Shown: positions 1 through 56,810, counted from the first letter of the stretch. The stretch: 64,000 nucleotides of DNA from an uncultured Eubacteriales bacterium (GCA_934481515.1 CAKSPO010000006.1:134-64133), one strand, 5' to 3'. Program-made: numbers and translations. Notes: a model not told the origin generated them from the letters alone.

Positions 1-3000
1 AATATCTCCCTCCGTCTCCGGAGCGGTCGGTTCCTGCGAAGTCGTATCCTCCGTCATTCCGTCAAACGGCGTTTCCGCAGGCGTCTCACCCGGAGCTACC
101 ATGGTAATCTCGGAAGGCTCCTCGTTTCCGCGGTTGATCAGTTCCATCGGGATGGCGGCAACCAGCTTCCGGATCAGGCCTTCCTCCACCAACTCGTCGT
201 TGGTCTTATAAGGAACGCGGAAATCTTCCTCGACAAAGTTCTTTTTCTTAGGCAACTGAAGCTGCTCTTCGCAAAGCTTCGTAATCAGCTCCAGCGTATG
301 CTTGAACTTTCTGTCGCCCTTGATCTTCATCAGAACCGGTACGGTTGCGTACTTCTTCTTGGAAGAAACATCGACAAACGCATACTTGCTGTCTGCCAGC
401 TCCTCCGGATTGAGCGCCATGTAGAGATACAGCGTCTTGGTCTTTGCATTGATCTTCGCCACATGGGTTCTGCCCAGATTGAAGGATTCGTAATTCCAGC
501 TGATCCGGTTCTTGATTCCCTTGTAGGAGAGGAGCAGGTTCTTGATCTGGTTGTAATAATCCTGAACATTGCCCTGCGACTGAATCATGCGGGACTGGAA
601 GCTTCTGCGGAATCTGGTAACCAGCTGTACCTCTCCGCGGCGCTCCTGCTCCAGCATATCGTTGTACTTTTCTGCCTCGGCAATGACATCGATGAAGTCC
701 AGCGGCATAGAACCGAATCCGGAGAAGGACTCGTTCTCTTCCTCATTTTCTTCGTTCTCGTCGTCCTCGGCACCCTCTTCGTCGGTTTCGGTCTCCTCGG
801 TAACTTCGGCAACCGTCTCGACAGCAGGCTCTTCAACAGGTTCTTCTGCCGGCTCCTCGACAGACTCTTCTGCGGGTTCTTCTGCAACCGGCAGGAGTCT
901 TGCTGCCAGTTCATCCACCACAGCCGCCTTGACCGCATCTGCCATATCTTCCGTCCAGCTATCCGGAATGTTAGCCTTACCGGCGGCATCCACCGCTTCG
1001 GTAATGGTTGCAATCGTGGTACCTTCCACGGCTTCCGGAACAACGCCGTCTACCGTGACCGCCTCAAATGCTTCCGCAACGGAATCCGCGACCACTGCGC
1101 AAATATCCGGTTCCTCTTCGGCAGCTTCCTCTGCAGGAGCTTCTTCGGTCGTCTCTTCTGCGGGAGCTTCTTCGGTCGTCTCTTCTGCGGGAGCTTCTTC
1201 GGTCGTCTCTTCTGCAGGAGCTTCCTCGGTGACATCCTCTGCCGGAACTTCCTCGGTGACATCCTCTGCGGGAGCTTTTTCGGTCGTCTCTTCTGCGGGA
1301 GCTTCTTCGGTTGTCTCTTCTGCAGGAGCTTCCTCGGTTGTCTCTTCTGCCGGAACTTCTTCGGCAACTTCCTCCGGCAGAACCATCGTTGCCGCCATGG
1401 ACTCTGCCACAATGGCATCCACAACGTCGCGGAAGGATTCCGGCGAAAGCTCTTCTTCGTCTGTAATCAGAGCAACGGCATCGGTTGCATCCGCAGATTC
1501 GTTGAAGTTCTCCGCGATGGTCTCCGCAACAGCAGCGGCAACCAACGTATCGTCTGCTTCGGGTTCTTCCTTTGCGGCTTCTGTGGATTCGGACAGATTT
1601 TCTGCAATCTGATCCGCCAGTTCGTCCGCAGTCGTATCCTCTTCGGCGTTCTCTTCTGCGTTCTCGTCTTCCAGCTGAATCTGAGAAAGCTCGGAAGAGA
1701 GATCCTCCATGGCTTCGCCCACTGCCTGCTCGGTTCCCTCTGCGTCTGCATTTTCTTCTTCGGACGCGGCTTCCACCTCATCGGAAAGATTCTCGGCAAG
1801 CGTATCGATTCCTTCGTTCAGGCAGGCATCAACATCCTCGATCTTGTCTTCCACGGTGACAGGTTCAAATACGGGAAGCTCACCCTCTGTATCAATGACA
1901 AGGACAGGGTTCTTTCCGCTACGCTCCAGACGACGGAGTCTGAGTCCAAGCAGGAACAGGAGAGCAAGAACAGCAACCACCAAAAGAATAATCAGCAGAA
2001 TTCCGGGAATGGTCACCCAGAACGGTGCGTGGTACTTCGGTGCCAAAACCATTGTCAGCTCACCGCGGGCACCAAAGTTATCAATAATATAATGTGTTCC
2101 GTCTTCGCTCAGGCGGATACTGTAGCTGTCCTTCATTGCGCTCATCGTTCCCGTTGCGGCATCGTACACATACAGGTCGGCATCGGTCAGCGGATCGCAA
2201 TTCTTCTCGGAAACAAAAGCAGAGTACACAGGAATGAGCAACTGATACGTTTCGCCCTCTTCGGTTCCCGTCAGCTTGATGGTATACTCTTTATGGACGC
2301 GGAATGCGTGAAGTGCCTTCTTGTTCAGCTCGGTAGGTACGGAAACCTCCAGCTTGACGGAAGGAGCAATTCCGTTCTCACAAAGCAGAATGAACTGGAA
2401 GGAATCATATGCGGAAGAACCTGCGCTCAAATAAGGAGACTTCACAACCATCGTCGCCGTCAGCGTCGAAACTTCATTTCCTTCCGCATCAACAAAGGCA
2501 TAGTTTTCAAAATCGCCGCTGATGCCGGAGGGGAGCTTTGCCTTTACAGTGTAAATTCCGCTTTCGGTAACGCCGTCGCCGACCGTTACCATTCCGTCCG
2601 CCTTGGTGTAGGTGTAAACAATTGCGGAATAAACAGAGGAAGGAATTCCGTTGCCGGAAACCAACAGACGATACGCAATCTTGTTTTCATCCGACGAGGT
2701 CAGCTTGCTTTCCATGATGTAAACCTGATTGCCGAGAGAGACGATGTAATATGCCTTCCGGATCGCAACGCCGCGGCTCAGATCCGATATCCCTGCTGCA
2801 AACGTATAGTTGGCAGCATCGGGGAGCGCTGCAGTCACCACATACGCGGTTTCCTTTTCCCCTCTTTTTACCTGTCCGTAAAGCCCCACGGCAGTTGCAT
2901 CCTCCAGAGAAAGAACACCGGAAGCGCCCGCAATGACAGGACGCAGGTCGTAGGTTCTGCCGGAGGCATCCTTACCGATGACGGAAATTTCGCAAATTTC

Positions 3001-3744
3001 CTTGTCTCCGTAAACGAAAGAATACGCAGGCTTACTCCACGAGACGGAAACGATTTCGATCGGGGTGATCGTTACGTTTACCGGGAGCGCCGGAATCACA
3101 TAGTTGTCAAGGTTGGTACCCGCACCTGCCGTAGCGGTCACGGTAGCGAACTTTTTGAGCGGATTCGATCCGGTTGCACCGGTCATCTCCACATCCAGTT
3201 CGGCACCCGTCACGGTGATGGTCTCACCGGCGGCAACCTTGGAGGTATCCAGCACATAACCGGCAGGAACGCGGACCGTCTCGGTGGTCTTTGCCGGATC
3301 GTACGGAATCGAAACGCTTCCGCCGATCGTCCATGAAAGCCGTGCAGGGACGATTCTTGCCGCCACTTCCATCGGCGCAGGCGCCTGATACTGATCGGCT
3401 TTTTCACCCGTCAGGGTAAACCGAACCGTAATTTTGGTAGCGCTTTGCACATCCTTGCTGTCGAATTCGGCAACAGCAACCAGTGTGACGCCCTCCGCAT
3501 CGGTCTCGGCGGTCACCGCAACAGTGGTTTTACCGTCATACTCTTTGCAGTAGTAGCCGTTTTCCGTCTTTACGACGTTCTCGTCAAACTTCAGGCTCTT
3601 GACGTTTGCAACCGGTCTCGTATTCCCGTTATCTGCCGAGGCAACGATTCCGATGCATCCGACAAGTGCCACAAGGATTGCGAGAACGAACAGCAGTCTG
3701 ACCGGCAGAGTGATGGATCCTGCCCTCATGCGTTGATTTTTCAT
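1..3744 (-). CDS. Large membrane-anchored surface protein whose C-terminus lies beyond the left edge. It has a signal peptide, an Ig/MBG-like ectodomain, one TM helix, an acidic cytoplasmic region with 9-aa repeats and a conserved basic domain.
   Basis: Absent from the ORF track because no stop codon lies in the window. Hand translation of the reverse strand from the ATG at 3744 (MKNQRMRAGSITLPVRLLFVLAILVALVGC...) stays open in one frame to base 1 (1248 codons). TM helix FWVTIPGILLIILLVVAVLALLFLLGL at about 1942-2022. APAEETTEE repeats. The segment at about 175-640 aligns to the 913-aa protein at 53149-55890. Confidence 0.8.
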   Translation of the reverse strand, partial: MKNQRMRAGSITLPVRLLFVLAILVALVGCIGIVASADNGNTRPVANVKSLKFDENVVKTENGYYCKEYDGKTTVAVTAETDAEGVTLVAVAEFDSKDVQSATKITVRFTLTGEKADQYQAPAPMEVAARIVPARLSWTIGGSVSIPYDPAKTTETVRVPAGYVLDTSKVAAGETITVTGAELDVEMTGATGSNPLKKFATVTATAGAGTNLDNYVIPALPVNVTITPIEIVSVSWSKPAYSFVYGDKEICEISVIGKDASGRTYDLRPVIAGASGVLSLEDATAVGLYGQVKRGEKETAYVVTAALPDAANYTFAAGISDLSRGVAIRKAYYIVSLGNQVYIMESKLTSSDENKIAYRLLVSGNGIPSSVYSAIVYTYTKADGMVTVGDGVTESGIYTVKAKLPSGISGDFENYAFVDAEGNEVSTLTATMVVKSPYLSAGSSAYDSFQFILLCENGIAPSVKLEVSVPTELNKKALHAFRVHKEYTIKLTGTEEGETYQLLIPVYSAFVSEKNCDPLTDADLYVYDAATGTMSAMKDSYSIRLSEDGTHYIIDNFGARGELTMVLAPKYHAPFWVTIPGILLIILLVVAVLALLFLLGLRLRRLERSGKNPVLVIDTEGELPVFEPVTVEDKIEDVDACLNEGIDTLAENLSDEVEAASEEENADAEGTEQAVGEAMEDLSSELSQIQLEDENAEENAEEDTTADELADQIAENLSESTEAAKEEPEADDTLVAAAVAETIAENFNESADATDAVALITDEEELSPESFRDVVDAIVAESMAATMVLPEEVAEEVPAEETTEEAPAEETTEEAPAEETTEKAPAEDVTEEVPAEDVTEEAPAEETTEEAPAEETTEEAPAEETTEEAPAEEAAEEEPDICAVVADSVAEAFEAVTVDGVVPEAVEGTTIATITEAVDAAGKANIPDSWTEDMADAVKAAVVDELAARLLPVAEEPAEESVEEPAEEPVEEPAVETVAEVTEETETDEEGAEDDENEENEEENESFSGFGSMPLDFIDVIAEAEKYNDMLEQERRGEVQLVTRFRRSFQSRMIQSQGNVQDYYNQIKNLLLSYKGIKNRISWNYESFNLGRTHVAKINAKTKTLYLYMALNPEELADSKYAFVDVSSKKKYATVPVLMKIKGDRKFKHTLELITKLCEEQLQLPKKKNFVEEDFRVPYKTNDELVEEGLIRKLVAAIPMELINRGNEEPSEITMVAPGETPAETPFDGMTEDTTSQEPTAPETEGDI
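1131..1373. repeat. In-frame 27-nt tandem repeat, about 9 units, encoding an acidic APAEETTEE-type nonapeptide
   Basis: Unit gcgggagcttcttcggtcgtctcttct recurs head to tail with point variants. Reverse-strand translation gives EEAPAEETT / EEVPAEDVT units. Confidence 0.9.
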
Positions 3745-46598: not shown

Positions 46599-48446
46599 GT
46601 GATCAGAGAAGATTTGAGAAATGTGGCAATCATCGCGCACGTCGACCATGGTAAAACCACGTTGGTGGACGGCTTGCTGAAGCAGGGCGGCATCTACCGG
46701 GAGAACCAGGAAACGGTGACCTGCGTGATGGATTCGGGAGACCTGGAGCGCGAGCGCGGAATTACCATTCTGGCGAAAAATACGGCGGTACACTATAAAA
46801 ACATCAAAATCAACATCATTGATACTCCCGGTCACGCAGATTTCGGCGGTGAGGTAGAGCGGATTCTGAAAATGGTGAACGGTGTCATTCTGCTGGTGGA
46901 TGCTGCAGAGGGACCGATGCCGCAGACCCGCTTTGTTCTGCAAAAGGCACTGGAACTGAATCACCGCGTTATTGTCTGTATCAACAAGATCGACAAGCCG
47001 GACGCACGGCTGGGCGAGGTGGAAGATGAAATTCTGGAGCTTCTGATGGATCTGGGCGCGAATGATGAACAGCTCGACAGCCCGATGCTGTACTGCTCCG
47101 GAAGAGCCGGAACCGCCAGCAACGATCCCAACGTTCCGGGAATCGACCTGACGCCGCTGTTTGAGAAAATCGTGGAATATATTCCCGCCCCCGGCGGAGA
47201 CGAGACGGGGGATCTTCAGCTTCTGGTCTCTTCCATCGACTACAATGACTACGTGGGAAGAATTGGCATCGGACGCATCGACCGCGGCTCCATCCGCGTC
47301 GGTCAGGAGGTTGCCGTATGCAACTATCACAACCCCGGTTCGGTCAAGCGTACCAAGATCGTTTCCCTTTACCAGATCGACGGACTTTCCCGCGTTCCCG
47401 TGGAAAGTGCAACCGTGGGAGACATCGTCTGCTTCTCCGGCGCCGGAGATATCACCATCGGAGACACGCTGACCGCAGTCACAAATCCGGAGCCTCTGGA
47501 GTTTGTCAAGGTCTCGGAGCCGACGATGGAAATGACTTTTATGGTCAACAACCGTCCGCTTGCCGGCAAGGAAGGAAAGTTTGTCACCTCCCGTCAACTC
47601 CGTGAACGCCTGTATAAAGAGTTGCTCAAAGACGTTTCCCTGCGGGTCTCCGACGGCGAAACCACGGATGAATTCCGCGTCGCGGGCAGAGGAGAAATGC
47701 ACCTTTCCATTCTTCTGGAAACCATGCGCCGCGAAGGCTTTGAGCTTGCCTGCTCCAATCCCCGCGTGCTTTACAAGGAGATCGACGGGCAGAAGTGCGA
47801 GCCGATGGAGCGCGTCACACTGGACGTTCCCGCAGAATTTGTCGGCGTGGTTGTCGAAAAACTCGGACAGAGAAAAGGGGAGCTCCTTTCGATGAACCCC
47901 ATCGGAAGCCGCACCCGGATTGAATATTCCATTCCCTCCCGGTGCCTTTTCGGCTACCGTTCCGAATTCCTGACCGCAACACACGGCGAAGGAATCATCA
48001 ACACCATTTTTGACGGTTATGCGCCTTACCATGGCGAAATCCCGATGAAGTTTACCGGCTCACTGGTCGCTTCCGAAGCGGGAGAAACCACACGGTACGG
48101 TCTTTACAATACGCAGGAGCGCGGTCTGCTCTTTGTCGGTCCGCAGACGCAGGTCTATGAAGGCATGATCGTCGGAGAAAACCCGAAGAATGACGACATC
48201 GCCGTCAATCCCTGCAAGAAAAAACAGCTGACCGCAATCCGTTCCGCAGGTGCCGACGAAAAACTTCTGCTGGTTCCTCCGAAGATCTTCTCGCTGGAGG
48301 AAGCGATTGAATATATCACGGACGACGACCTGATCGAGGTCACGCCGAAGTCCATCCGTCTGCGCAAAAAGATTCTGAACACCGAGCTCCGCATGAAGGA
48401 CATGATGCGCAAGCGCCGGGAGCTGGAAGCGCAGAAGCGCGGATAA
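46599..48446 (+). CDS. typA: Translational GTPase TypA/BipA
   Basis: GTG start. [35 protein letters not shown]. Full-length BipA architecture. Confidence 0.95.
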
Positions 48447-48697: not shown

Positions 48698-51600
48698 TTA
48701 TTCTTCAGAATTCCGGTAGAACTCTTCATAATCGGAGGCACCGGATTCCGTTTCCGCATTTTGCGGTGCTTCTTCCGATTCATCGGTTTCGGAATCTCCC
48801 GGCTCGGTCGTTCCCGTTTCTGAAGCAACCGTGTCAGATGCTTCCGGCGAAAGTCCGTAGTTCTCCCACTGGAATTCGTCCTGCGGCAAATATCCTCCAT
48901 GGTCGGAAGCATTCATTTCGGAGTCTTCCGCAAAGTCATATTCACCGGAATCGGATTCTGCAGAATCAGATTCTTCAGAATTGTATTCCGCAGAATCATC
49001 CTCCATGGAATAGTACGGATTTGCGGCAGGTTCAATGAAGTCCTCGTCGCTTTCCCCGTAAACATCCTCTGCAGCTTCGGAAGTTTCCGCTTCGGAAAAT
49101 ACATCATTAAAAGATTCCGTATCAAAATCTTCTGCGTCCGCAATGTCCGCTTCGGAAAGTTCTTCGTCGGAAAGCGCTTCTTCCGATACTTCCTCCGCAG
49201 AATCCGGAGATTCTTCCGGATCTCCGGTGTATGCAGCATCGGTTTCCGCTGAAGTCTCTTCCGTCATATACGGCTCCCCGTAATCGGACGTTTCATCGTA
49301 AACAGCAAACGGATCTTCTGTAGCTTCCGCTTCGGAGATTCCGTTTTCTGCTACGGCGGGTTGTCCCTCCGGCTCAGCCATAACAGGCACCACGTGGTTG
49401 TGTGCTTCGTCATCTCCGGAGCCAGGTCCCGGACGACGGCGGAAGAACACCTCCGAAGTCAGGAGCAGATACATCAGAAAAATCTGCAAAAGCACTGCAA
49501 TTCCACCGAGAATGCAGACAATCAGCATTGCATTCTCCGGCAGGAAACGAACCGTCAGAAGCACAGGAAGTGCCCACGCGGACAGGCGCACCTGCCCGTT
49601 CTTTCTTTCGCGCCGTGCAGAGAGCAGTGCCGCAATGGCAACCAGCTGGCAAAGCAGAATGACAGAAAGTACAATGATCACGGGAGTCAGAAGAACGGTC
49701 GGATCCGCAAAAATCACAAAATCCGAAATATGGTCGGCAACGAAATAGAGCTCATCGCCATCCCGGCGGCATTCCAGAAGTTCCACAACGCCGGTCGTCC
49801 GGTCATAGTAAGCAACCGTCAGTCCGGTATGATGCCGCAGTTCCTCCGGAATCTGCAACCGGATCTCAAAGGAATTCTTTTCATTGTTGGTCGTCGTCAG
49901 TAAAGAGAAGCTGTAGACGCCAACCACCTCAAGCCCGCGGAGCAGCTCCTCCGCTTCCGCGAGAGTGATTCCGGCGGCACTGACCGTAACGCGTCCGGAG
50001 GTACGGATCGCATCACTGATTGCGGCGGCAAGCGTATCAAAATCCTCCTGTCGGATCAGAGTCAGATAACTGCCCTGCGCAAGACCGTATTTGGCAAGCA
50101 GGCGGAGAAGTCCGTCTCTGCTGAACAGATACGTGACCGGAATCTGCTCCATCGCGCTCTTTGCGTCGGCGGAGACCGCATCCACTTCACTCTCGGTCGC
50201 TGCCGAAATGATGGCAGCTTCCGCCGCGGCAACGATGGTCTTCATCTGATTCAGGCTTTCCTCGCTGAACAGCCCGCTTGCGGTATAACTGCGCAAAAGC
50301 TCCCGCAGCTCGGCAATCTTTTTGTCCTGATAACGTGCAAACCCGATCTTCGCCCTGGCGTCCTCGACAATACGCTCCACAATGTGGTAGAAATCGGGAT
50401 CCAGCGGTGTTTTGGCGGCTTCCTCGTTGATTTTCCGGATGGCTTCGTCAATCACACCTCTGGCAAGCTCACCGTCACTGCCCTCCCGCAGATTTTCCAG
50501 CTCCTCAATCTTGGAAGGAAGATAAGACTGAATCAGCGTGGAATACCGCAATTCCAGCTCTTTTCCGTGCGGCTCGTTTTCCGTTGCCTTCAGACGGATA
50601 TAAATACAGTATTCGGTACCGGGATAAAGTCCCTCAAACGTACCGGAATCCTGCCACACCAGCGCCGTACCGGAGGCAGAGCTTGCGCGGCAGGCAAACT
50701 CAAACAGGCTTGCGCGTTCCTCCAGCATCTGCACGATCAGCTTGGTATCGTAAAGGTTCTTGATGACATAAATGTCGCCCTTTCCGGTGGCAACATCATA
50801 CCATGTAGGCATATCCGCTCTGCCGACAATCGCAAAATCCACCGGATCGCTGTCGGAGGTCGCCGTACAATCGCCGTAAGCAATGATCTGTACCGTATTT
50901 CCGAAGAAGGAATCCGGCACCGTCACGGCGCTCTCTCCTTTTCCGTTGACCGTGAAGTTTCCGGAAGAAGAAACGGTCACCCGCAGAGAAACGGAGCCGA
51001 AACGGATCAGATACGAGCCGGCGGGCAGAACAAAGGTTTCATCGAAATAGTTGATGCGGATCGTCGGCACCGTAATGGTCGGAAGCACGGTGGCGCGAAG
51101 CTGAATTTCCCCGACCCCGACCGTCAGCTCCGGAGACGTATATACAGAGGAGTGCTCGGAGAGCACCGTACCGTTCCACTTCACGGTCTTGTAACCGGAG
51201 GGGGATCGGATGATAACCGTAAACCGCGTCTCATACGGAAGCAGAATCGGAGAGCCGGTGTAAGGATACTCCGTCCCGTCCGCCGTCCGGATGATAACCG
51301 TCGCGTCATCCGTTCCCTCTATCGTAACGGAAACCGGATAGGACTTGCGGATCCACGCCGCATACAGCGTAATGCTTCCGTCGCCGTCCGCCCCGGACAG
51401 ATCCCAGGCGGAGCAGACGCTTTCACCGACTGCGTTGATATAAAGAGTTCCCTTTCCGTCCGGCTCACTGTAATACCCGGCAAAATCAAAGCCCGTCCGG
51501 GTGGGGCAGACGAATGCAGGGGAAGTGGGAAGAACAAAGGGCTGATCGTAGATCACATCCGCAATGCTTCCGGTTCCGGGCGTAGTAGCGTCCTGCCCGT

Positions 51601-53131
51601 CCAGAATCACGTGGTAATGCTTGGCTTCCCAAACGGCTTCCAGACGGATATTTTCCGCGTACGTTCCGGCAGAAAGCTTCACCGCACCGTTCTCGGAGGT
51701 CAGCTCCGCCGTTCCTCCCGAGGTGTGCAGAATCCATTTGATGAAGGTATATCCGGCGCGAACCGGATCCGGTACGGTAATTCCGTTCTCGTCATCAAAC
51801 ACGAAGTTGCGCGGAAGAGCGGCATTGATCGTATCCAGAAGCGTATTCTGCTCATCGTTCTTTCCGTTCCAGACGTAACCGATCTCATACGTGTTGGCTT
51901 CCCAGCACGCCGTGAGAACAATCTCCTTATCAGCGGAAATATATTTGGTCAGATTGTCGTTGTCAAGACCGAGACAAAGACCGGGCTGCAGATTCTCATA
52001 CTGCACCGTAGTTGCATCCTCCGACTTGACCGTCATGATCCACCCGCGGAAGGTATATCCGACCCGCGTGGGATCCGGAATGTCCGTCCGTACATTGAAG
52101 GTGTACTTCACCGGAGCGCCCTCCGGCATCGTCAGTGCACTGCCGTCCGGATTCCGGTAGGTCAGCACATAGTCAATCGCCTTGTAGAGCCGGTACACCA
52201 CGTTCGGAGCAGGCTGAAGACCGGTCGGCACCGTGATCTGATGGGTCGGGTAACTGTAGCCGTCCGTCCCGTCGGTCAGCAGCTCATATCCCACATAAGA
52301 CTTGTATCCGCCTTCGGGGTCGTCACTCATGTGCTCCAGCGCCGTAATAATCTTTGCCATGTCCTCTTCCCATTCGGTGGTACCAAGCAGCTTTCCGTGG
52401 AAAAGCGGCGGCGCATCCGGGTCATACCGGTAGTCATACCGGCGCACCGGCTGCTTGACCGGCGTAAAGACGGCATAGGCGTAAACGGTACCGGTTCCGT
52501 CCATATCGTCATTGAACAGATATTTCGGAATATAATACTGATCCGCTTCGTTCTTGTTGATGATTTTCTGATAGGACTTTCCGGTGCTGTCCAACAGTTC
52601 CCAGTGATCAAACAGATATCCCGTCCGCACGACCGCGGGAAGCACATAGTCCTCATTATAGGTATATTTCTGGTTGTTCAGTTCGTTTTCGTTGGCGCTC
52701 AACGGGTGGTACGGACGTGCGCTCAGCCCTTCGCCGACAAACCGCAGATCAAAGGAACGGTAACCGCACCGGATGATTCCGCTGACCGACTCCGAAAACG
52801 TCTCGCGGCTGAAACGGTCATTCGTCATCAGACTGCTTCCCGGCGCATTCTTGTTTTCAATGTCCGTCAGTTCAAATCCGTCCTTCGGCTGAACGGTGAC
52901 AATCACACTGGAGCCGGTCGGAATGGAGTACTTCTTTCCGGAAACCATATCGATTTTTTCCGTCCCGTAATAAAGCGTTACGGAACACTGCTCCGGATCA
53001 AATTCCATCATGAGATCCGGATCCGTTCCTTCGGCGGAAACCGAAACCAGCAGCGCACAGGTCAGCAGTGCCAGAAGTACCGAAAGGAGCAACGCCAAAC
53101 GCATCCGGAACATTTTTTTACATGGATTCAT
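48698..53131 (-). CDS. 1477-aa surface protein with Listeria-Bacteroides (InlB B / Flg_new-type) repeats, a C-terminal TM block and a 247-aa acidic tail
   Basis: Signal peptide MRLALLLSVLLALLTCALLVSVSA. Recurring G[YF]xFxxW motifs (TGYLFDHWEL, VGYTFRGWIM, AGYTFIKWIL, TGFDFAGYYSEPDG). Hydrophobic block at about 49442-49717. D/E/S/Y-rich tail at 48701-49441. No LPXTG seen. Confidence 0.8.
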   Translation of the reverse strand: MNPCKKMFRMRLALLLSVLLALLTCALLVSVSAEGTDPDLMMEFDPEQCSVTLYYGTEKIDMVSGKKYSIPTGSSVIVTVQPKDGFELTDIENKNAPGSSLMTNDRFSRETFSESVSGIIRCGYRSFDLRFVGEGLSARPYHPLSANENELNNQKYTYNEDYVLPAVVRTGYLFDHWELLDSTGKSYQKIINKNEADQYYIPKYLFNDDMDGTGTVYAYAVFTPVKQPVRRYDYRYDPDAPPLFHGKLLGTTEWEEDMAKIITALEHMSDDPEGGYKSYVGYELLTDGTDGYSYPTHQITVPTGLQPAPNVVYRLYKAIDYVLTYRNPDGSALTMPEGAPVKYTFNVRTDIPDPTRVGYTFRGWIMTVKSEDATTVQYENLQPGLCLGLDNDNLTKYISADKEIVLTACWEANTYEIGYVWNGKNDEQNTLLDTINAALPRNFVFDDENGITVPDPVRAGYTFIKWILHTSGGTAELTSENGAVKLSAGTYAENIRLEAVWEAKHYHVILDGQDATTPGTGSIADVIYDQPFVLPTSPAFVCPTRTGFDFAGYYSEPDGKGTLYINAVGESVCSAWDLSGADGDGSITLYAAWIRKSYPVSVTIEGTDDATVIIRTADGTEYPYTGSPILLPYETRFTVIIRSPSGYKTVKWNGTVLSEHSSVYTSPELTVGVGEIQLRATVLPTITVPTIRINYFDETFVLPAGSYLIRFGSVSLRVTVSSSGNFTVNGKGESAVTVPDSFFGNTVQIIAYGDCTATSDSDPVDFAIVGRADMPTWYDVATGKGDIYVIKNLYDTKLIVQMLEERASLFEFACRASSASGTALVWQDSGTFEGLYPGTEYCIYIRLKATENEPHGKELELRYSTLIQSYLPSKIEELENLREGSDGELARGVIDEAIRKINEEAAKTPLDPDFYHIVERIVEDARAKIGFARYQDKKIAELRELLRSYTASGLFSEESLNQMKTIVAAAEAAIISAATESEVDAVSADAKSAMEQIPVTYLFSRDGLLRLLAKYGLAQGSYLTLIRQEDFDTLAAAISDAIRTSGRVTVSAAGITLAEAEELLRGLEVVGVYSFSLLTTTNNEKNSFEIRLQIPEELRHHTGLTVAYYDRTTGVVELLECRRDGDELYFVADHISDFVIFADPTVLLTPVIIVLSVILLCQLVAIAALLSARRERKNGQVRLSAWALPVLLTVRFLPENAMLIVCILGGIAVLLQIFLMYLLLTSEVFFRRRPGPGSGDDEAHNHVVPVMAEPEGQPAVAENGISEAEATEDPFAVYDETSDYGEPYMTEETSAETDAAYTGDPEESPDSAEEVSEEALSDEELSEADIADAEDFDTESFNDVFSEAETSEAAEDVYGESDEDFIEPAANPYYSMEDDSAEYNSEESDSAESDSGEYDFAEDSEMNASDHGGYLPQDEFQWENYGLSPEASDTVASETGTTEPGDSETDESEEAPQNAETESGASDYEEFYRNSEE

Positions 53132-53148
53132 ATTTCGTTGCCCTCCTC

Positions 53149-55890
53149 TCAGCGAATCAGAATGGAATCCCCGTCCGCTTCCCCGATGGCGATCAGCGCA
53201 TCTCTGGTGAAGTGGTTGGCTTCCACAGTGTACTTTCCTTTGACGGAACCGCTTGCATAAACCTTCAGAACCGTTGCGCTTTCCGGTGCCAGTCCGACTT
53301 CCTTCACGGCATCCAGATCCACCACGGAACCGTTTTCAAAATAATGATCGAACAGGCAAACATCAATCAGAGCCACATTCGGATTGGCATTGCTCATCGG
53401 CTCCGGTCGCGAGGGAGCCGGGGGCGGAGTCTCCGCAGGCTCGTCCTCTTCGGTGGGTTCGTCCTCTTCGGCAACCTCGTCCTCTTCGGCAGGCTCGTCC
53501 TCTTCGACAACTTCGTCCTCTTCGGTGGGTTCGTCCTCTTCGACAGGCTCGTCCTCTTCGGTGGGCTCGTCCTCTTCGGCAACCTCGTCCTCTTCGGCAA
53601 CTTCGTCCTCTTCGGCAACCTCGTCCTCTTCGACAGGCTCGTCCTCTTCGACAACTTCGTCCTCTTCGACAGGCTCGTTCTCTTCGGCAGGCTCGTCCTC
53701 TTCGGCAACCTCGTCCTCTTCGACAGGCTCGTCCTCTTCGGCAACCTCGTCCTCTTCGGTGGGTTCGTCCTCTTCGACAGGCTCGTCCTCTTCGGCAGGC
53801 TCGTCCTCTTCGACAGCTTCTTCCGCGGGTTCCGGGACTTCCGGGATCTCCGGAATTTCCGGAGCGGATTCTTCAACCGTTTCTGTCGGTTGTATAGTAG
53901 CAGAAGGTTCTGCAAGCGTTGCGGTCTCCTCCGCTTCTCCCTCGATCAACTTTGTTGCTGAAGTCTTTCCGGCAGAATCCGGAACGTGATAGAAAGTTTC
54001 TTTATAGTGTTGCTCCACAATGTGCACCGTCTCTCTCGAAACGGTCGTCGTAGAAGCAGGAACGGGAGCGGCCGGTTGCGTCACCTCTTCCGGATTTTCC
54101 TCCGGCTCCGGTTCGGGCATTTCCTCCGGCGCAGGCTCCGGTTCCGGTACTTGTTCCGGTTCCGGCTCTGTCGCTTTTTCCGCCTCGTCGTCCAGTTCCC
54201 AGGTAAAGTTTGCGTTTGCCGGAATCACGCTGGCATCCTCGTCCGGAACCGCAGGAACATGATCGGGATCCAACTCAAAGGAAACCGCCGGTTTTTCCTC
54301 CCGCAGATACTCACGGATCAGCCCGCGTGCAATCAGACTATCGGTTGCTTCAAACGGATACTGCTCCTCGTAATTGACCTCTTCCAGATCAATCGGAGAC
54401 AATCCCTGCTCCTCACAGGTTCGCTGAATCAGCTCCAACGCCAGCGTCAGCTTACGGGGAGAGGTAACTTTATACAGAAACGGCGTGTCCGCATACTTTT
54501 TCTTTCCGCCGACATCTCTGCCGTGATAAACCGTGCCCTCCAGTCCCGCGGGATCCAGTGCAAGATACACCTCCAGAGTCTTTGCGCGGGCATTGAATTT
54601 TGCAATCTGCGTATGCTCATTGGTGAAGGTCTCACAGCCCCAGCTGATGCGGTTGCGGGTTCCCTCGTACGCCATGACGGCATTTTTCAGCGCACTGTAA
54701 TACCGCTTGACCGCCGGGCGGGACTGAATCAGCTTTGCTTCAAAGCTCTTGCGGTAACGTGCTACGATATAGTAGCCGGTCTCCTCATCAAATCCGACAA
54801 TCCGTTCGTTGGCATCAAACAGGTCGCTGTCGAAGCCATCCTCCGCGTCCGGCTCTTCTCCGTCGTTGTCCTCCGCGGAAACGTCACCGTCCGCAGAAAG
54901 GTCGGTATCGTCATCGTCGTCCTCCGCGTCATCCTCCGGAGATTCCGGAAACTCTGCGTCCTCCCGCAGAGAATGCTTTTCTCCTGCTCCCGCCGCCACG
55001 GTCGCATCCGAAGTGTTCCGCGGGCTTTCCACCGCCATTTCACGTTCCAAACGGTGCTGTTTCTCCACCTTCAGAAGCTCCGTGATTGCACGCAAAAGCT
55101 CCTCGGTCAAAGGCGTGTCCTTTGCAACCGCGGCAGGCGTCGGGATATTGTTGGTAGTCGTTTCGTGAACGACCTCCTTGTGTGTTTCCGTAAAGTGTTT
55201 TTCAATAATCCGGACAGAACCGGGCGCACCGGCATACGGCGGCACCTGCTGTGTCCCCGCCGCCGTCATGGGAACCTGTTCCGGAACCGTTGCGGAAACC
55301 GGAACCGAAGGCTCCGCCGCATCCGCAGGAACCGTCTCCTCCGCGGAAAAAATCTCCTCCTGCTCCCTCTCCGGAAGATTCTCCTCCATCGGAGGCTCCT
55401 CGATGTCCGCCTCGGCATCCGTCGGGGCATCCGCTTCGTCGTCGGCTACGGCATCCTCTGCCGCCCCCTCTGCTTCCGTTACGGATTCCGCCGCCTCTGT
55501 CCCGGCATCGGTATCGACATCCGGTGTGTCGGCTTCCTTACGGCGCTCCTTTCCGGCAAGGAACAGGTACCCCTTGCAACGGAACACAACCAAAAGAACC
55601 GCAAGCACGATAGCCCCGACCGCCGCCGCTCCCGCCAGTGTATAAAACACGGCATACGTCGTCCTGGGAACAATTCCGAGCAACAGGATCCCCAGCGCAT
55701 AATGCCGCTCGGAATCCTCCTCTTTGCCGTGCGCGCGTCTGACCTTTCCGATCAGGATGCAGATTCCGGCAATCTCTGCCCCAAGGATGCATGCCAGCAG
55801 GACAATGGCAATCAGAAAGAACCGCTCCGCGCTGAGATTCAGCGTAGCGGAAAGCGCTGCGGTAAGTACCGGGAAAAAAGATGAAATCAA
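53149..55890 (-). CDS. 913-aa membrane-anchored polyacidic protein with a conserved basic domain and a uL15-like C-terminal domain
   Basis: TTG start 8 nt after GGAGG. Three N-terminal TM helices. D/E-rich linkers. Conserved domain at aa 362-530. About 22 hexapeptide EEDE[PV]x repeats. The last 76 aa (NVALIDV...LKVYASGSVKGKYTVEANHFTRDALIAIGEADGDSILIR) align to the ribosomal protein L15 C-terminal domain. Confidence 0.8.
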   Translation of the reverse strand: MISSFFPVLTAALSATLNLSAERFFLIAIVLLACILGAEIAGICILIGKVRRAHGKEEDSERHYALGILLLGIVPRTTYAVFYTLAGAAAVGAIVLAVLLVVFRCKGYLFLAGKERRKEADTPDVDTDAGTEAAESVTEAEGAAEDAVADDEADAPTDAEADIEEPPMEENLPEREQEEIFSAEETVPADAAEPSVPVSATVPEQVPMTAAGTQQVPPYAGAPGSVRIIEKHFTETHKEVVHETTTNNIPTPAAVAKDTPLTEELLRAITELLKVEKQHRLEREMAVESPRNTSDATVAAGAGEKHSLREDAEFPESPEDDAEDDDDDTDLSADGDVSAEDNDGEEPDAEDGFDSDLFDANERIVGFDEETGYYIVARYRKSFEAKLIQSRPAVKRYYSALKNAVMAYEGTRNRISWGCETFTNEHTQIAKFNARAKTLEVYLALDPAGLEGTVYHGRDVGGKKKYADTPFLYKVTSPRKLTLALELIQRTCEEQGLSPIDLEEVNYEEQYPFEATDSLIARGLIREYLREEKPAVSFELDPDHVPAVPDEDASVIPANANFTWELDDEAEKATEPEPEQVPEPEPAPEEMPEPEPEENPEEVTQPAAPVPASTTTVSRETVHIVEQHYKETFYHVPDSAGKTSATKLIEGEAEETATLAEPSATIQPTETVEESAPEIPEIPEVPEPAEEAVEEDEPAEEDEPVEEDEPTEEDEVAEEDEPVEEDEVAEEDEPAEENEPVEEDEVVEEDEPVEEDEVAEEDEVAEEDEVAEEDEPTEEDEPVEEDEPTEEDEVVEEDEPAEEDEVAEEDEPTEEDEPAETPPPAPSRPEPMSNANPNVALIDVCLFDHYFENGSVVDLDAVKEVGLAPESATVLKVYASGSVKGKYTVEANHFTRDALIAIGEADGDSILIR
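53431..53826. repeat. In-frame 18-nt tandem repeat, about 22 units, encoding EEDE[PV][AVT]
   Basis: ctcgtcctcttcggcaac / ...gacagg / ...ggtggg units recur head to tail. All six frames give low-complexity shadow ORFs in the track. Confidence 0.95.
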
Positions 55891-55974: not shown

Positions 55975-56003
55975 ATTGTAGCACAAAACGATTTTAGAAT
56001 CAA
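55975..56003 (-). promoter_or_regulatory. Extended -10 promoter of the surface-protein operon
   Basis: The reverse strand reads TTGATT, 17 nt, TGcTACAAT, within an AT-rich spacer. Confidence 0.6.
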
Positions 56004-56050: not shown

Positions 56051-56087
56051 AAAAAGCCCGGAAACAACAAAAGGAACAACGTTTCCG
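56051..56087 (-). terminator. Intrinsic terminator of the upstream lipid-kinase operon
   Basis: The reverse strand reads cggaaac...gtttccg, followed by GGCTTTTTA. Confidence 0.6.
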
Positions 56088-56135
56088 CATCCATCGGCAA
56101 AAACGTGTTCCTCCTGACAAAACCTTTAAAAAATC

Positions 56136-56810
56136 TCACAGCTCCTGCAAAAGGCGCTCCAGCCGGTTCCGGACCTCCCCGCACCGGAGAAAAACCGTCT
56201 GCAGTCGGCACTGCTTTCCTTCTCCGGACAGATCCGCCGCCGCTCCGACCTCGCGTCGCAGATACGCCGACAGACTTCCCGCATCCTCCCGCGCCGCGGC
56301 AGACACCCTTGCAAATGCCGCCGAAAGCGCCGCTTCCCGACACTCCGGCGATGCCGCTTTTCCGTGAGACGCTTCCGTCTCCGGGCATTCATTCTCCGCC
56401 GTTCCGCCCGCCGGTTCCCCGCCGCTTCCGGATCGGATTCTGACCCCAGCGACCCGAAGCTCCGTCAGTTGTTTTTCCACGGCATGCAAAGCAAAGAAAA
56501 CCGGAAGGCTCTCCTCCTGCAACTTCTCCCAGGACAAAAGCATCCGGCAGACGACCGGAAGAGCATCCTCCTTCGGCTCCCCGCGGAAAATGCCGGACGG
56601 TGCCGGGAGCGCGTGCTCCGTCCGCCGCAACAGCTCCATCTCCCGCTCCAGTTTCTGCCGCAGAAGCACCTTTGCCTGCGCAAGCTGCTTTTCTGCCTGT
56701 GAGAGAAGCACCTCCCGGCTCACCTCCGGAAGCGGTGCGTCCCGATTGGTTCCGGTTCCAAGATACCCGAAATCCTCCGGAAAAAGCGGTTTCCCGCCCC
56801 CCTCAGACAT
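56136..56810 (-). CDS. Hypothetical protein (about 224 aa), coiled-coil-rich
   Basis: Start MSEGGGKPLF overlaps the upstream stop by 8 nt. EKQLAQAKVLLRQKLEREMELLRR segment. No family recognised. Confidence 0.45.
   Translation of the reverse strand: MSEGGGKPLFPEDFGYLGTGTNRDAPLPEVSREVLLSQAEKQLAQAKVLLRQKLEREMELLRRTEHALPAPSGIFRGEPKEDALPVVCRMLLSWEKLQEESLPVFFALHAVEKQLTELRVAGVRIRSGSGGEPAGGTAENECPETEASHGKAASPECREAALSAAFARVSAAAREDAGSLSAYLRREVGAAADLSGEGKQCRLQTVFLRCGEVRNRLERLLQEL

What the first reader, a model, noticed from the sequence alone, without database searches (positions are those of the whole stretch)
53152..53379. C-terminal domain homologous to ribosomal protein uL15 on a membrane protein
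The last 76 residues are NVALIDVCLFDHYFENGSVVDLDAVKEVGLAPESATVLKVYASGSVKGKYTVEANHFTRDALIAIGEADGDSILIR. They align column by column with the C-terminal globular domain of bacterial L15 as I recall it from B. subtilis RplO: [73 protein letters not shown].

The N-terminal Gly/Arg-rich rRNA-threading extension of true L15 is absent. A 23S-rRNA-contacting fold tethered to the membrane by about 700 acidic residues is unexpected. It could mean ribosome or RNA tethering, or mimicry.
Basis: partly seen in the sequence, partly recalled or inferred. Interest (0 to 1): 0.7.

Follow-up and report, generated by a model that had tools for sequence, protein, structure and literature searches.

The report
Ribosomal uL15 domain on membrane protein
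A 913-residue membrane protein of an uncultured gut Clostridia bacterium really does end in a copy of the C-terminal domain of ribosomal protein uL15, and this turns out to be the recurrent end-cap of a large, undescribed superfamily of cytoplasmic tails on membrane and surface proteins whose function is unknown.

Summary
The last 76 codons of the minus-strand gene 53149..55890 match Pfam PF00828 above its curated cutoff. A family profile hits only uL15 chains in the PDB. The predicted fold superposes on uL15 at 1.6-1.8 A.

It is not rplO. It scores 19.7 against a TIGR01071 cutoff of 78, and uL15's N-terminal half is absent.

The "700 acidic residues" contain a basic (pI 9.7), confidently folded domain (CD) with a DUF5655/YjbR-like fold and no Pfam model. 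An exhaustive search finds CD in 2,837 protein clusters, often in tandem copies.

In 61 of the 141 newly returned relatives among the best 150 hits, a uL15-like domain sits within 11 residues of the C-terminus. It is almost only found in membrane-anchored proteins. These include giants built as signal peptide, Flg_new ectodomain, TM, CDx2-3, uL15-like.

In the window this layout is split into two genes. The partner (48698..53131) follows 17 bp downstream and is present in 42 of 43 testable loci.

Function is unknown. The window's subfamily cap is acidic (net -6), which argues against uL15-style rRNA binding here. Relatives' caps are neutral to basic. No literature was found. NCBI labels one giant relative "uL15 family ribosomal protein".

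The parts
53149..55890 (-). Gene for the 913-aa membrane protein (TM module, acidic linkers, CD, acidic repeats, uL15-like domain)
   Evidence: ORF with TTG start and GGAGG RBS. There are 210 homologues of 800-1100 aa, and 119 of the 120 listed carry both CD and the uL15-like domain.
53152..53379 (-). uL15-like C-terminal domain (residues 838-913), the finding itself
   Evidence: PF00828 at 29.8/35 bits against GA 21.5. PDB profile search gives 45/45 uL15 hits, E 5e-9. Foldseek rmsd 1.6-1.8 A over 70-72 columns. pLDDT about 90. Net charge -6.
53435..53816 (-). Tandem array of 18-nt units (about 21 copies) encoding the acidic hexapeptide repeat EEDE(P/V)x within linker 4 (residues 636-837, net charge -97)
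   Evidence: TRF and charge table. The array is 102 aa shorter in P0001, the otherwise identical protein from another assembly.
53986..54051 (-). Conserved beta-hairpin motif 2 (residues 614-635, consensus ETVKxTExxYTERYY)
   Evidence: Invariant E620, E626, Y629, E631. Predicted strand pair with pLDDT about 80. Conservation 0.73.
54193..54270 (-). Conserved post-CD motif (residues 541-566, DPDHVP..EDxSVIPANANFTWE)
   Evidence: The most conserved stretch of the family, 0.86. Low model confidence, so possibly a linear interaction motif.
54271..54819 (-). Central domain 'CD' (residues 358-540): basic-core alpha+beta domain, DUF5655/YjbR/YdhG-like fold, no Pfam model
   Evidence: AF2 pLDDT 95.9, pTM 0.88. 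Foldseek hits: YjbR 2fki, YdhG 2oc6/9t2w; a DUF5655 phage protein at E 9e-4 and D9ZNF6 at E 7e-5. Core net charge +9, pI 9.7. 2,837 cluster representatives match. No Pfam, NCBIfam or PDB sequence hit.
55027..55113 (-). Conserved helix (residues 260-288)
55153..55218 (-). Conserved beta-hairpin motif 1 (residues 225-246, consensus PVVEKxVTETxKEVIKET), related in pattern to motif 2
   Evidence: Invariant E230, K231, E235, E239. Predicted hairpin.
55567..55821 (-). Membrane module (residues 24-108): TM helix, Lys/Arg-rich loop, then a second hydrophobic segment of about 40 aa followed by an invariant G-Y
   Evidence: Hydropathy, model helices 21-56 and 76-105, invariant G107 and Y108.
55975..56003 (-). 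Promoter-like site TTGATT-17-TACAAT with extended TG, about 85 nt upstream of the start codon. A terminator-like hairpin of the preceding gene lies at 56079-56106.
   Evidence: Consensus scan only.
48698..53131 (-). Partner gene, 17 bp downstream. 1,477-aa surface protein: signal peptide, Flg_new repeats, membrane module (residues 1137-1234 = 49430..49723), acidic cytoplasmic tail (residues 1235-1477, net -81)
   Evidence: Flg_new 56.1 bits against cutoff 27. Present directly downstream in 42 of 43 family loci with room. Tail statistics.
48995..49042 (-). Conserved short motif DFIEPAANPYYSMEDD in the partner's otherwise variable acidic tail
   Evidence: Family consensus dFIEpaanp.YSLpdee across 40 partner tails.
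1..3744 (-). Paralogue cut by the window edge: signal peptide, ectodomain of about 600 aa, single TM, acidic repeat linker, one CD (about 160..627). Full length is 1,291 aa with no uL15-like domain.

Best explanation
SHOWN
- The 228 bases encode a true, folded homologue of the C-terminal globular domain of ribosomal protein uL15. It has been recruited as the C-terminal end-cap of a non-ribosomal membrane protein.
- The protein runs in this order: an N-terminal membrane module; then a chain of extremely acidic disordered linkers that carries one basic-core globular domain (CD, DUF5655/YjbR-like fold) and short conserved motifs; then the uL15-like domain at the very end.
- The gene is paired with a gene for a large surface protein that has a signal peptide, Flg_new repeats, a C-terminal membrane module and an acidic tail.
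- In other Clostridia the same parts occur in one polypeptide: signal peptide, ectodomain, TM, CD x2-3, uL15-like. The window's pair is therefore the two-gene version of a widespread 'ectodomain - TM - CD(n) - uL15-like cap' design.

INFERRED
- The CD and cap lie in the cytoplasm. This rests on positive-inside charges, and on a single TM between a secreted ectodomain and the CD in the in-window paralogue and in many of the giant proteins.
- The two window proteins associate, either through their possibly related membrane modules or through the conserved motif in the partner's tail.
- The basic CD is the polyanion-binding element, most likely for nucleic acid.
- The uL15-like cap is a terminal interaction module. 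In this subfamily it has become acidic, so it more probably contacts a protein or a basic surface than 23S rRNA in the way uL15 does.
- Overall, the pair would couple a cell-surface protein to a cytoplasmic ligand.

The confidence value averages near-certainty on anatomy and evolution with low certainty (about 0.25) on function.
For: Homology of the cap.

Not rplO: TIGR01071 scores 19.7 against a cutoff of 77.95 and aligns only over positions 72-141.

Family and selection:
- 210 homologues, of which 119 of the 120 listed have CD plus cap.
- Conservation (mean frequency of the commonest residue) is 0.82 for CD, 0.70 for the cap and 0.64 for the TM module, against 0.34-0.45 for the linkers.
- 50 GTDB species loci, all uncultured gut or rumen Clostridia.

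Gene pair: (42 of 43 loci). Own promoter-like site.

Superfamily:
- 2,837 CD clusters.
- 61 of 141 representatives carry the cap, always 0-11 aa from the C-terminus.
- Giants with Flg_new (115-165 bits) plus PF00828 (45-53 bits) in one chain.
- The cap is tied to a TM segment upstream of the CDs: 33 of 34 against 34 of 74, odds ratio about 39.

Topology: the in-window paralogue has a signal peptide, an ectodomain, one TM and then a CD.

CD properties:
- Core net +9, pI 9.7, with 13 conserved Lys/Arg columns.
- Fold relatives are YjbR, YdhG/DUF1801, DUF5655 and the MotA double-wing domain.
- DUF5655 Pfam hit of 62.8 bits in relative P0138.

Link between the two proteins: hhalign of the two membrane modules gives P 6e-5 over 69 columns, against probability 2.6% for the reversed control. 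The partner tail has a conserved motif.

Acidic cap.
Against: - No experiment and no characterised relative exists, so every functional step is inference.
- The membrane-module similarity is weak (BLASTP E 0.064; hhalign probability only 65%), and hydrophobic segments align easily.
- The window's partner is not orthologous to the N-terminal parts of the giant fused proteins. Only the Flg_new-type repeats align, at 24-31% identity. 'Split version' therefore describes architecture and is not a demonstrated fission event.
- The CD fold matches are remote (best PDB E 0.016). The matched families have mixed or unknown functions, for example YdhG as a frataxin-like iron protein, so nucleic-acid binding is not established.
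- Topology was inferred from hydropathy and charge only.
- Short relatives such as P0185 and P0182 have no surface-protein neighbour, so coupling to an ectodomain is not universal.
Confidence: 0.5

Rival explanations
1. Ribosome or rRNA tether. The uL15-like cap binds 23S rRNA or an assembling or mature 50S subunit, holding ribosomes or rRNA at the membrane beneath a surface protein. This could, for example, localise translation.
For: - True homology to an rRNA-binding ribosomal protein domain.
- In distant architectures the cap is neutral to basic (mean +2, up to +6) and closer to the uL15 consensus, with PF00828 scores of 45-53 bits.
- The CD is basic and has a fold seen in DNA-binding proteins.
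- P0185 sits between an ABC-F gene and ruvX-DUF1292-rpsB-tsf-pyrH-frr.
- BipA in the window and HPF in L002 lie next to the pair, on the opposite strand.
Against: - This subfamily's cap has net charge -6, with K->E and K->H substitutions in the conserved TVKAnKFS motif.
- It hangs on a chain with net charge of about -170.
- uL15's N-terminal extension, which by established ribosome structures provides much of its rRNA contact, is absent.
- The site on the ribosome is already occupied by the cell's own uL15.
- The translation-gene neighbours are not conserved across loci.
Confidence: 0.15
2. Autoinhibited tail. The acidic linkers and the acidic uL15-like cap fold back onto the basic CD as an intramolecular polyanion mimic. 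The CD's ligand site stays shielded until a change at the ectodomain or partner releases it.
For: - Extreme charge segregation: CD core +9, against linkers of -27, -25, -22 and -97 and a cap of -6.
- The acidic character is specific to the split two-gene subfamily, whereas fused relatives have neutral or basic caps.
- The partner also carries a tail of net charge -81.
Against: - No model or contact evidence was available: no PAE output, and the full-length pTM is 0.35.
- Conservation of specific cap residues such as V889, E890, A891 and F894 suggests a specific interface more than generic charge.
Confidence: 0.15
3. Molecular mimicry or decoy. The cap imitates the exposed face of uL15 in order to bind a factor that normally recognises uL15 on the 50S subunit, such as an assembly factor, a neighbouring ribosomal protein or a toxin, and sequesters it at the membrane.
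For: The fold and many core and surface positions of uL15 are retained across more than 100 family members. The cap always occupies the free C-terminal position, as in uL15 itself.
Against: No candidate factor is encoded nearby in a conserved way. The surface charge has diverged strongly from uL15 in this subfamily.
Confidence: 0.07
4. Functionless remnant or annotation artefact. The similarity is a decaying leftover of an old fusion, or a chance profile hit.
For: Only the modest single-sequence scores: E 8e-4 against the PDB, and 19.7 bits against TIGR01071.
Against: - The Pfam score is above the curated cutoff.
- The profile E-value is 5e-9, with 45 of 45 hits to uL15.
- The fold is confident and superposes at 1.6-1.8 A.
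- Conservation is 0.70, against 0.40 for the adjacent linker, across the family.
- The cap recurs in several distant architectures.
Confidence: 0.02

Closest known systems
Bacterial ribosomal protein uL15 (RplO; Pfam PF00828, TIGR01071)
   Same: The C-terminal alpha/beta globular domain is shared. Sequence evidence is PF00828 above cutoff and E 5e-9 to Listeria, Enterococcus, Staphylococcus and Bacillus uL15. Fold evidence is rmsd 1.6-1.8 A. As in uL15, the domain sits at the extreme C-terminus.
   Different: - No N-terminal Gly/Arg/Lys-rich extension.
- 913 aa against about 145 aa.
- Membrane-anchored.
- Net charge -6 against about 0.
- Fails the rplO equivalog model (19.7 against 77.95 bits).
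- Not in a ribosomal-protein operon.
'uL15 family ribosomal protein' MBO7303675.1 (P0223, 2,603 aa, Clostridia bacterium MAG), an automatic NCBI name
   Same: It belongs to the same superfamily: TM, then two CDs, then a C-terminal PF00828 domain of 45.6 bits. This shows that annotation pipelines already detect the domain.
   Different: It is a giant single-chain protein with an ectodomain of about 1,800 aa, a basic Pro/Lys-rich linker and a basic cap (+5). The database name is a misnomer, and no study of it was found.
DUF5655 (PF18899) / YjbR (PF04237) / YdhG-DUF1801 (PF08818) fold group
   Same: The CD core shares the alpha+beta fold. Foldseek hits are YjbR 2fki (probability 1.00), YdhG 2oc6/9t2w, and a phage DUF5655 protein at E 9e-4 with rmsd 3.2 A over 109 columns. 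CD copies of relative P0138 hit DUF5655 at 62.8 bits. JGI names two CD fragments 'predicted transport protein'.
   Different: - The window's CD matches no Pfam or NCBIfam model, even at permissive E-values.
- It has an extra N-terminal beta-hairpin and extra C-terminal helices and a strand.
- It occurs as membrane-tethered tandem arrays, which is not described for those families.
Flg_new / Listeria-Bacteroides repeat surface proteins (PF09479; InlB B-repeat type), for the partner gene
   Same: The partner has a signal peptide and four Flg_new repeats (56.1 bits). This is typical of large Firmicute surface proteins.
   Different: The partner is anchored by a C-terminal multi-segment membrane module and carries an acidic cytoplasmic tail of 243 aa with a conserved motif. 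It is obligatorily paired with the CD/uL15-like protein.
Eukaryotic ER ribosome receptor p180/RRBP1 (an analogy recalled from general knowledge, not tested here)
   Same: Both have an N-terminal membrane anchor followed by a long cytoplasmic region built of short tandem repeats. This would be a functional analogue if the ribosome-tether reading were true.
   Different: The p180 repeats are basic, whereas these are extremely acidic. There is no homology, and p180 has no ribosomal-protein domain.

Membership tests
Ribosomal protein uL15 / RplO (TIGR01071 equivalog) | Whole-protein score above the curated equivalog cutoff (77.95 bits) | tested here: not met
   19.7 bits for the protein and 23.1 bits for the C-terminus alone.
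Ribosomal protein uL15 / RplO (TIGR01071 equivalog) | N-terminal Gly/Arg/Lys-rich extension that threads into 23S rRNA | tested here: not met
   The alignment covers only model positions 72-141 of 144. The preceding 202 residues have net charge -97.
Ribosomal protein uL15 / RplO (TIGR01071 equivalog) | C-terminal globular domain with the L15p/L18e fold | tested here: met
   PF00828 at 29.8/35 bits against GA 21.5. 45 of 45 PDB profile hits are uL15. rmsd 1.6-1.8 A over 70-72 columns.
Ribosomal protein uL15 / RplO (TIGR01071 equivalog) | Small stand-alone protein (about 145 aa) encoded in the spc ribosomal-protein operon next to secY (placement from general knowledge) | tested here: not met
   The protein is 913 aa. 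Its neighbours are a Flg_new surface protein, BipA, DAGK/YegS, Trp repressor and Hsp33, with no ribosomal-protein genes.
Ribosomal protein uL15 / RplO (TIGR01071 equivalog) | Stoichiometric component of the 50S subunit | not testable with these tools
   This needs ribosome purification from an uncultured organism or a heterologous assay.
Pfam PF00828 domain family (Ribosomal_L27A: L15, L18e, L27A) | Domain score above the gathering threshold | tested here: met
   The domain is precomputed for nearly all 120 listed homologues. Distant relatives score 36-53 bits.
DUF5655 (PF18899), for the central domain | Sequence match above the gathering threshold (24 bits) | tested here: not met
   No hit for the window's CD at E<=1 or for the whole protein at E<=10. 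Relative P0138 does reach 62.8 bits.
DUF5655 (PF18899), for the central domain | Shared three-dimensional fold | tested here: inconclusive
   Foldseek gives E 9e-4, rmsd 3.2 A over 109 columns and TM 0.38-0.47 to a phage DUF5655 protein. PDB relatives YjbR and YdhG reach only E 0.016-0.075.
Flg_new repeat surface proteins (PF09479), for the partner gene | Repeats above the gathering threshold, plus an N-terminal signal sequence | tested here: met
   56.1 bits against 27, in 4 stretches. The hydrophobic N-terminus is MNPCKKMFRMRLALLLSVLLALLTCALLVSVSA.
Membrane ribosome receptor (functional class, e.g. p180/RRBP1) | Binds ribosomes through a basic cytoplasmic repeat region | tested here: not met
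   The repeats here are acidic (net -97). Ribosome binding itself cannot be tested with these tools.

The most novel reading that the evidence does not exclude
The 'TM - CD(n) - uL15-like cap' tail is a previously unrecognised bacterial system that physically couples cell-surface proteins to ribosomes, pre-ribosomes or RNA at the inner face of the membrane. A domain captured from rplO would provide ribosome or RNA recognition, and the basic DUF5655-like CD would bind nucleic acid. This would be a bacterial counterpart of membrane ribosome receptors, widespread in uncultured gut Clostridia. In the window's subfamily the acidic cap and linkers would be a regulatory, autoinhibitory elaboration of it.
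Probability: 0.12. Interest if true: 0.85.

Novelty: new variant of a known kind. Interest (0 to 1): 0.58.

Why it matters
Ribosomal-protein folds reused outside the ribosome are known for several families. I found no description of this for the uL15/eL18 fold. The four literature searches returned nothing relevant, and the only database trace is a misleading automatic name.

The case here is also not an isolated fusion. The uL15-like domain is the recurrent C-terminal cap of a very large, unnamed domain superfamily (2,837 clusters at 50% identity). That superfamily forms the cytoplasmic tails of membrane and giant surface proteins in abundant, uncultured gut and rumen Clostridia.

Long structured cytoplasmic tails on bacterial surface proteins are unusual. 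They suggest coupling between the cell surface and some cytoplasmic machinery.

Practical consequences:
- Annotations calling 600-2,800-aa membrane proteins 'uL15 family ribosomal protein' can be corrected.
- A new domain family (CD) could be defined.
- A concrete set of constructs (CD, acidic cap, basic cap) is available to test whether bacteria tether RNA or ribosomes to surface-protein tails.

Tried and rejected
- **C-terminus-only homology search.** It returned only ten proteins of 70-133 aa. These are split gene calls of the same family; for example P0123 lies on the same 13,788-bp contig as the cap-less P0107. It therefore could not tell whether the cap occurs without CD.
- **Literature.** Searches for uL15 non-ribosomal paralogues, PF00828, 'uL15 family ribosomal protein' and DUF5655 found nothing relevant.
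- **PHROGs and NCBIfam.** No informative hits beyond the weak rplO match.
- **PDB sequence searches for CD.** No hit, even at E<=10.
- **tblastn of CD, linker and cap against phage and plasmid records.** No match, so there is no sign of a mobile-element origin.
- **Idea that L054 and L055 hold a different protein with only the cap.** Rejected. L054 was inspected and holds a full-length 971-aa family member plus the partner; the local scan found the same in L055.
- **Idea that the giant fused proteins are orthologous fusions of the window's two genes.** Rejected. Only the Flg_new-type repeats align.
- **BLASTP of the two membrane modules.** Not significant, E 0.064. The profile comparison gave only moderate support.
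- **Opposite-strand ORFs over the acidic repeats** (53068..53961, 53253..53897, 53384..53989, 53986..55884, all +). Regarded as shadows of the repetitive coding strand, not genes.
- **A genuine rplO in the same genome.** Not in the window.
- **PADLOC.** Not run.


Full report
**1. The observation**

The finding lies at the 3' end of a minus-strand gene, 53149..55890. The gene encodes 913 aa, starts at TTG, and has GGAGG 8 nt upstream.

- Pfam PF00828 (Ribosomal_L27A, the L15/L18e/L27A domain) matches residues 851-907 with 29.8 bits and E 8e-7. The 76 residues alone score 35.0 bits. The curated cutoff is 21.5.
- The single sequence finds only uL15 chains in the PDB, best E 8e-4.
- A profile of 25 family C-termini finds 45 chains, all uL15, best E 5e-9.
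- A full-length AlphaFold model gives pLDDT of about 90 for residues 838-905.
- Foldseek ranks uL15 chains first, with probability 1.00 and rmsd 1.6-1.8 A over 70-72 columns.

The similarity is therefore real homology, far beyond chance.

**2. It is not rplO**

- The rplO equivalog model TIGR01071 scores 19.7 bits against a cutoff of 77.95, and aligns only over its positions 72-141 of 144. The N-terminal extension of uL15 is absent.
- What precedes the domain is a 202-residue stretch with net charge -97.
- The neighbours are not ribosomal-protein genes.
- No second PF00828-like sequence exists in the window.
- I could not scan the rest of the genome for the normal rplO.

**3. Anatomy of the protein**

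| Residues | Element | Notes |
|---|---|---|
| 24-108 | Membrane module | A TM helix, a Lys/Arg-rich loop, then a second hydrophobic segment of about 40 aa ending in an invariant G-Y |
| 111-224, 289-357, 567-613, 636-837 | Four disordered linkers | Net charges -27, -25, -22 and -97 |
| 225-246 and 614-635 | Two related beta-hairpin motifs | Conserved |
| 260-288 | Helix | Conserved |
| 358-540 | Central globular domain (CD) | pLDDT 95.9, pTM 0.88 when modelled alone |
| 541-566 | Linear motif DPDH...IPANANFTWE | Sharply conserved |
| 838-913 | uL15-like domain | The finding |

- The last linker includes about 21 copies of an 18-nt unit encoding EEDE(P/V)x.
- Across 61 family members, conservation (mean frequency of the commonest residue) is highest in the post-CD motif (0.86) and CD (0.82). 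It is clear in the uL15-like domain (0.70) and the TM module (0.64), and low in the linkers (0.34-0.45).
- The CD core is the only basic element, with net charge +9 and pI 9.7. The uL15-like domain is acidic, with net charge -6 and pI 4.5.

**4. The family and the gene pair**

- A homology search returned 210 proteins of 800-1100 aa. Only two of the 120 listed carry a source name, and both are 'hypothetical protein'. 119 of the 120 listed have both CD and the cap. The exception is a split gene call.
- In GTDB representative genomes the family occurs in 50 loci. All are uncultured gut, caecum or rumen MAGs labelled Clostridia, Eubacteriales, Oscillospiraceae or 'uncultured Ruminococcus'.
- In every inspected context, and in 42 of the 43 loci with enough downstream sequence, the gene is followed within a few bases to a few tens of bases by a gene for a protein of about 810-1,500 aa. 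The flanking genes differ between loci.
- In the window this partner is 48698..53131. It has a signal peptide, Flg_new repeats (56.1 bits), a C-terminal membrane module, and a 243-aa cytoplasmic tail with net charge -81.
- Partner tails are variable, except for one motif with consensus dFIEpaanp.YSLpdee.
- The membrane modules of the two proteins have the same layout. They align collinearly at the profile level (69 columns, P 6e-5, probability 65%; reversed control 2.6%). Pairwise BLASTP is not significant.
- A promoter-like site precedes the first gene.

**5. The wider superfamily, the main new result**

An exhaustive HMMER search with CD alone found 2,837 cluster representatives at E<=1e-3, and 1,834 at E<=1e-10. 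Many have 2-7 tandem copies, in proteins of up to 2,828 aa. CD has no Pfam, NCBIfam or PDB sequence match.

A local census of the 141 newly returned representatives among the best 150 hits found four architectures:
- (a) The window's type.
- (b) Short TM - CDx2-3 - uL15-like proteins of about 600-1,000 aa.
- (c) Giants: signal peptide, ectodomain of 1,000-2,200 aa, TM, CDx2-3, uL15-like.
- (d) Soluble CD-only repeat proteins.

Further results from the census:
- Pfam confirms Flg_new (115-165 bits) and PF00828 (45-53 bits) in single chains such as P0168 and P0191.
- The uL15-like domain is present in 61 of 141 representatives, and always ends 0-11 residues from the C-terminus.
- Among multi-CD proteins it is nearly confined to those with a TM segment upstream of the CDs: 33 of 34, against 34 of 74 without the cap. 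The odds ratio is about 39. The p-value is only indicative, because the representatives are related.
- NCBI names one giant (P0223, 2,603 aa) 'uL15 family ribosomal protein', an automatic misnomer.
- The window itself holds a paralogue at 1..3744 (-), cut by the window edge and recovered in full on L058. It is 1,291 aa and runs signal peptide, ectodomain, one TM, acidic repeat linker, one CD, with no cap. A single TM between a secreted ectodomain and CD places CD in the cytoplasm.
- The partner is not orthologous to the N-terminal parts of the giants. Only the repeat regions align. 'Split version' therefore describes architecture only.

**6. What CD and the cap look like functionally**

- CD's nearest structures are E. 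coli YjbR (2fki, probability 1.00, E 0.016), YdhG/DUF1801 proteins (2oc6, 9t2w), and more weakly the MotA double-wing DNA-binding domain.
- In the viral library the nearest are an unnamed protein (E 7e-5, rmsd 2.8 A over 103 columns) and a DUF5655 protein (E 9e-4, rmsd 3.2 A over 109 columns).
- CD copies of relative P0138 hit DUF5655 at 62.8 bits.
- CD cores are basic across the superfamily: mean net charge +9.8, pI 9.6, with 13 conserved Lys/Arg columns.
- The cap's charge varies by architecture. It is -1 to 0 in three genuine Firmicute uL15 C-domains, a mean of -5.7 in the window's family, and a mean of +2 (range -6 to +6) in distant architectures.
- The family-invariant 'TVEAnhFT' aligns to uL15's 'TVKAnKFS'.

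**7. Interpretation**

Shown:
- An exapted uL15 C-domain caps the tail of a membrane protein.
- The protein is one half of a conserved two-gene module.
- That module belongs to a large, undescribed 'TM - CD(n) - cap' superfamily.

Inferred:
- The tail is cytoplasmic.
- The two proteins form a complex.
- The basic CD binds a polyanion, most plausibly nucleic acid.
- The cap is a terminal interaction module.

Because this subfamily's cap and linkers are strongly acidic, I consider uL15-style rRNA binding unlikely here. A protein or basic-surface contact is more likely, possibly an autoinhibitory one with CD. RNA or ribosome binding stays open for the basic-capped relatives.

Weak hints in that direction are that P0185 lies between an ABC-F gene and ruvX-rpsB-tsf-pyrH-frr, and that BipA and HPF genes lie next to the pair in two loci. 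These neighbours are not conserved across loci.

**8. Novelty**

Four literature searches found nothing. Annotation pipelines detect the Pfam domain but mislabel it. The parts are known folds, but their combination, distribution and likely role are undescribed. I rate it a new variant of a known kind: reuse of a ribosomal-protein domain, and surface proteins with structured tails. There is a minority chance that it is a new membrane-to-ribosome or membrane-to-RNA coupling system.

Noticed in passing
window 1..3744 (-); full length on L058:5477-9352 (-): A paralogue that the ORF listing does not list because it runs off the window edge. It is 1,291 aa and runs signal peptide, ectodomain of about 600 aa, single TM, acidic EETTEEAPA repeat linker, one CD (42% identical to the CD of the 913-aa protein), then an acidic Ser/Thr-rich end with no uL15-like domain.
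   Followed up: yes
window 53435..53816 (-): The 18-nt acidic repeat array (about 21 units) is 17 units (102 aa) shorter in P0001, the otherwise identical protein from another metagenome assembly. This is either copy-number variation or assembly collapse of the repeat.
   Followed up: partly
window 48995..49042 (-), partner residues 1364-1379: A short motif DFIEPAANPYYSMEDD (family consensus dFIEpaanp.YSLpdee) is the only well-conserved element in the partner's otherwise variable acidic cytoplasmic tail. It is a candidate docking motif.
   Followed up: partly
L056:5821-14159: The distant short relative P0185 (TM-CDx2-uL15-like, 583 aa) lies between an ABC-F type ATPase gene and ruvX, 18 bp upstream of ruvX. 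DUF1292, rpsB, tsf, pyrH and frr follow. This is a translation-related neighbourhood with no surface-protein partner.
   Followed up: no
window 46599..48446 (+); L002:15187-15717 (-): Ribosome-associated genes lie next to the pair on the opposite strand in two loci: BipA/TypA GTPase in the window, and the hibernation factor HPF (Ribosomal_S30AE) in L002. These are not conserved elsewhere and are probably coincidental.
   Followed up: partly
window 53068..53961, 53253..53897, 53384..53989, 53986..55884 (all +): There are long open frames of up to 632 aa on the strand opposite the acidic repeats and linkers. They translate to low-complexity Ser/Arg/Leu/Phe-rich sequence and look like shadow ORFs of the repetitive coding strand, not genes.
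   Followed up: partly
P0223 (NCBI MBO7303675.1) and P0288, P0297 (JGI): Public names for relatives are misleading. A 2,603-aa membrane protein is called 'uL15 family ribosomal protein', and CD fragments are called 'predicted transport protein'.
   Followed up: yes
window 56136..56810 (-) and equivalents in L001, L003, L004: A protein of 224-237 aa with no Pfam match, preceded by a DAGK/YegS-type lipid kinase gene, lies upstream of the pair in three of the four independent contexts (immediately upstream in two, with two genes in between in L004). It is not present in L002, and its relation to the module is unknown.
   Followed up: no
P0132, P0138, P0153, P0259: There are soluble proteins made almost only of CD repeats, up to 7 copies, with no TM and no cap. 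One has a DUF2357 match, a domain I recall as nuclease-associated, and another has a weak DDE-transposase match. This hints at a nucleic-acid-related role for CD outside the membrane context.
   Followed up: no
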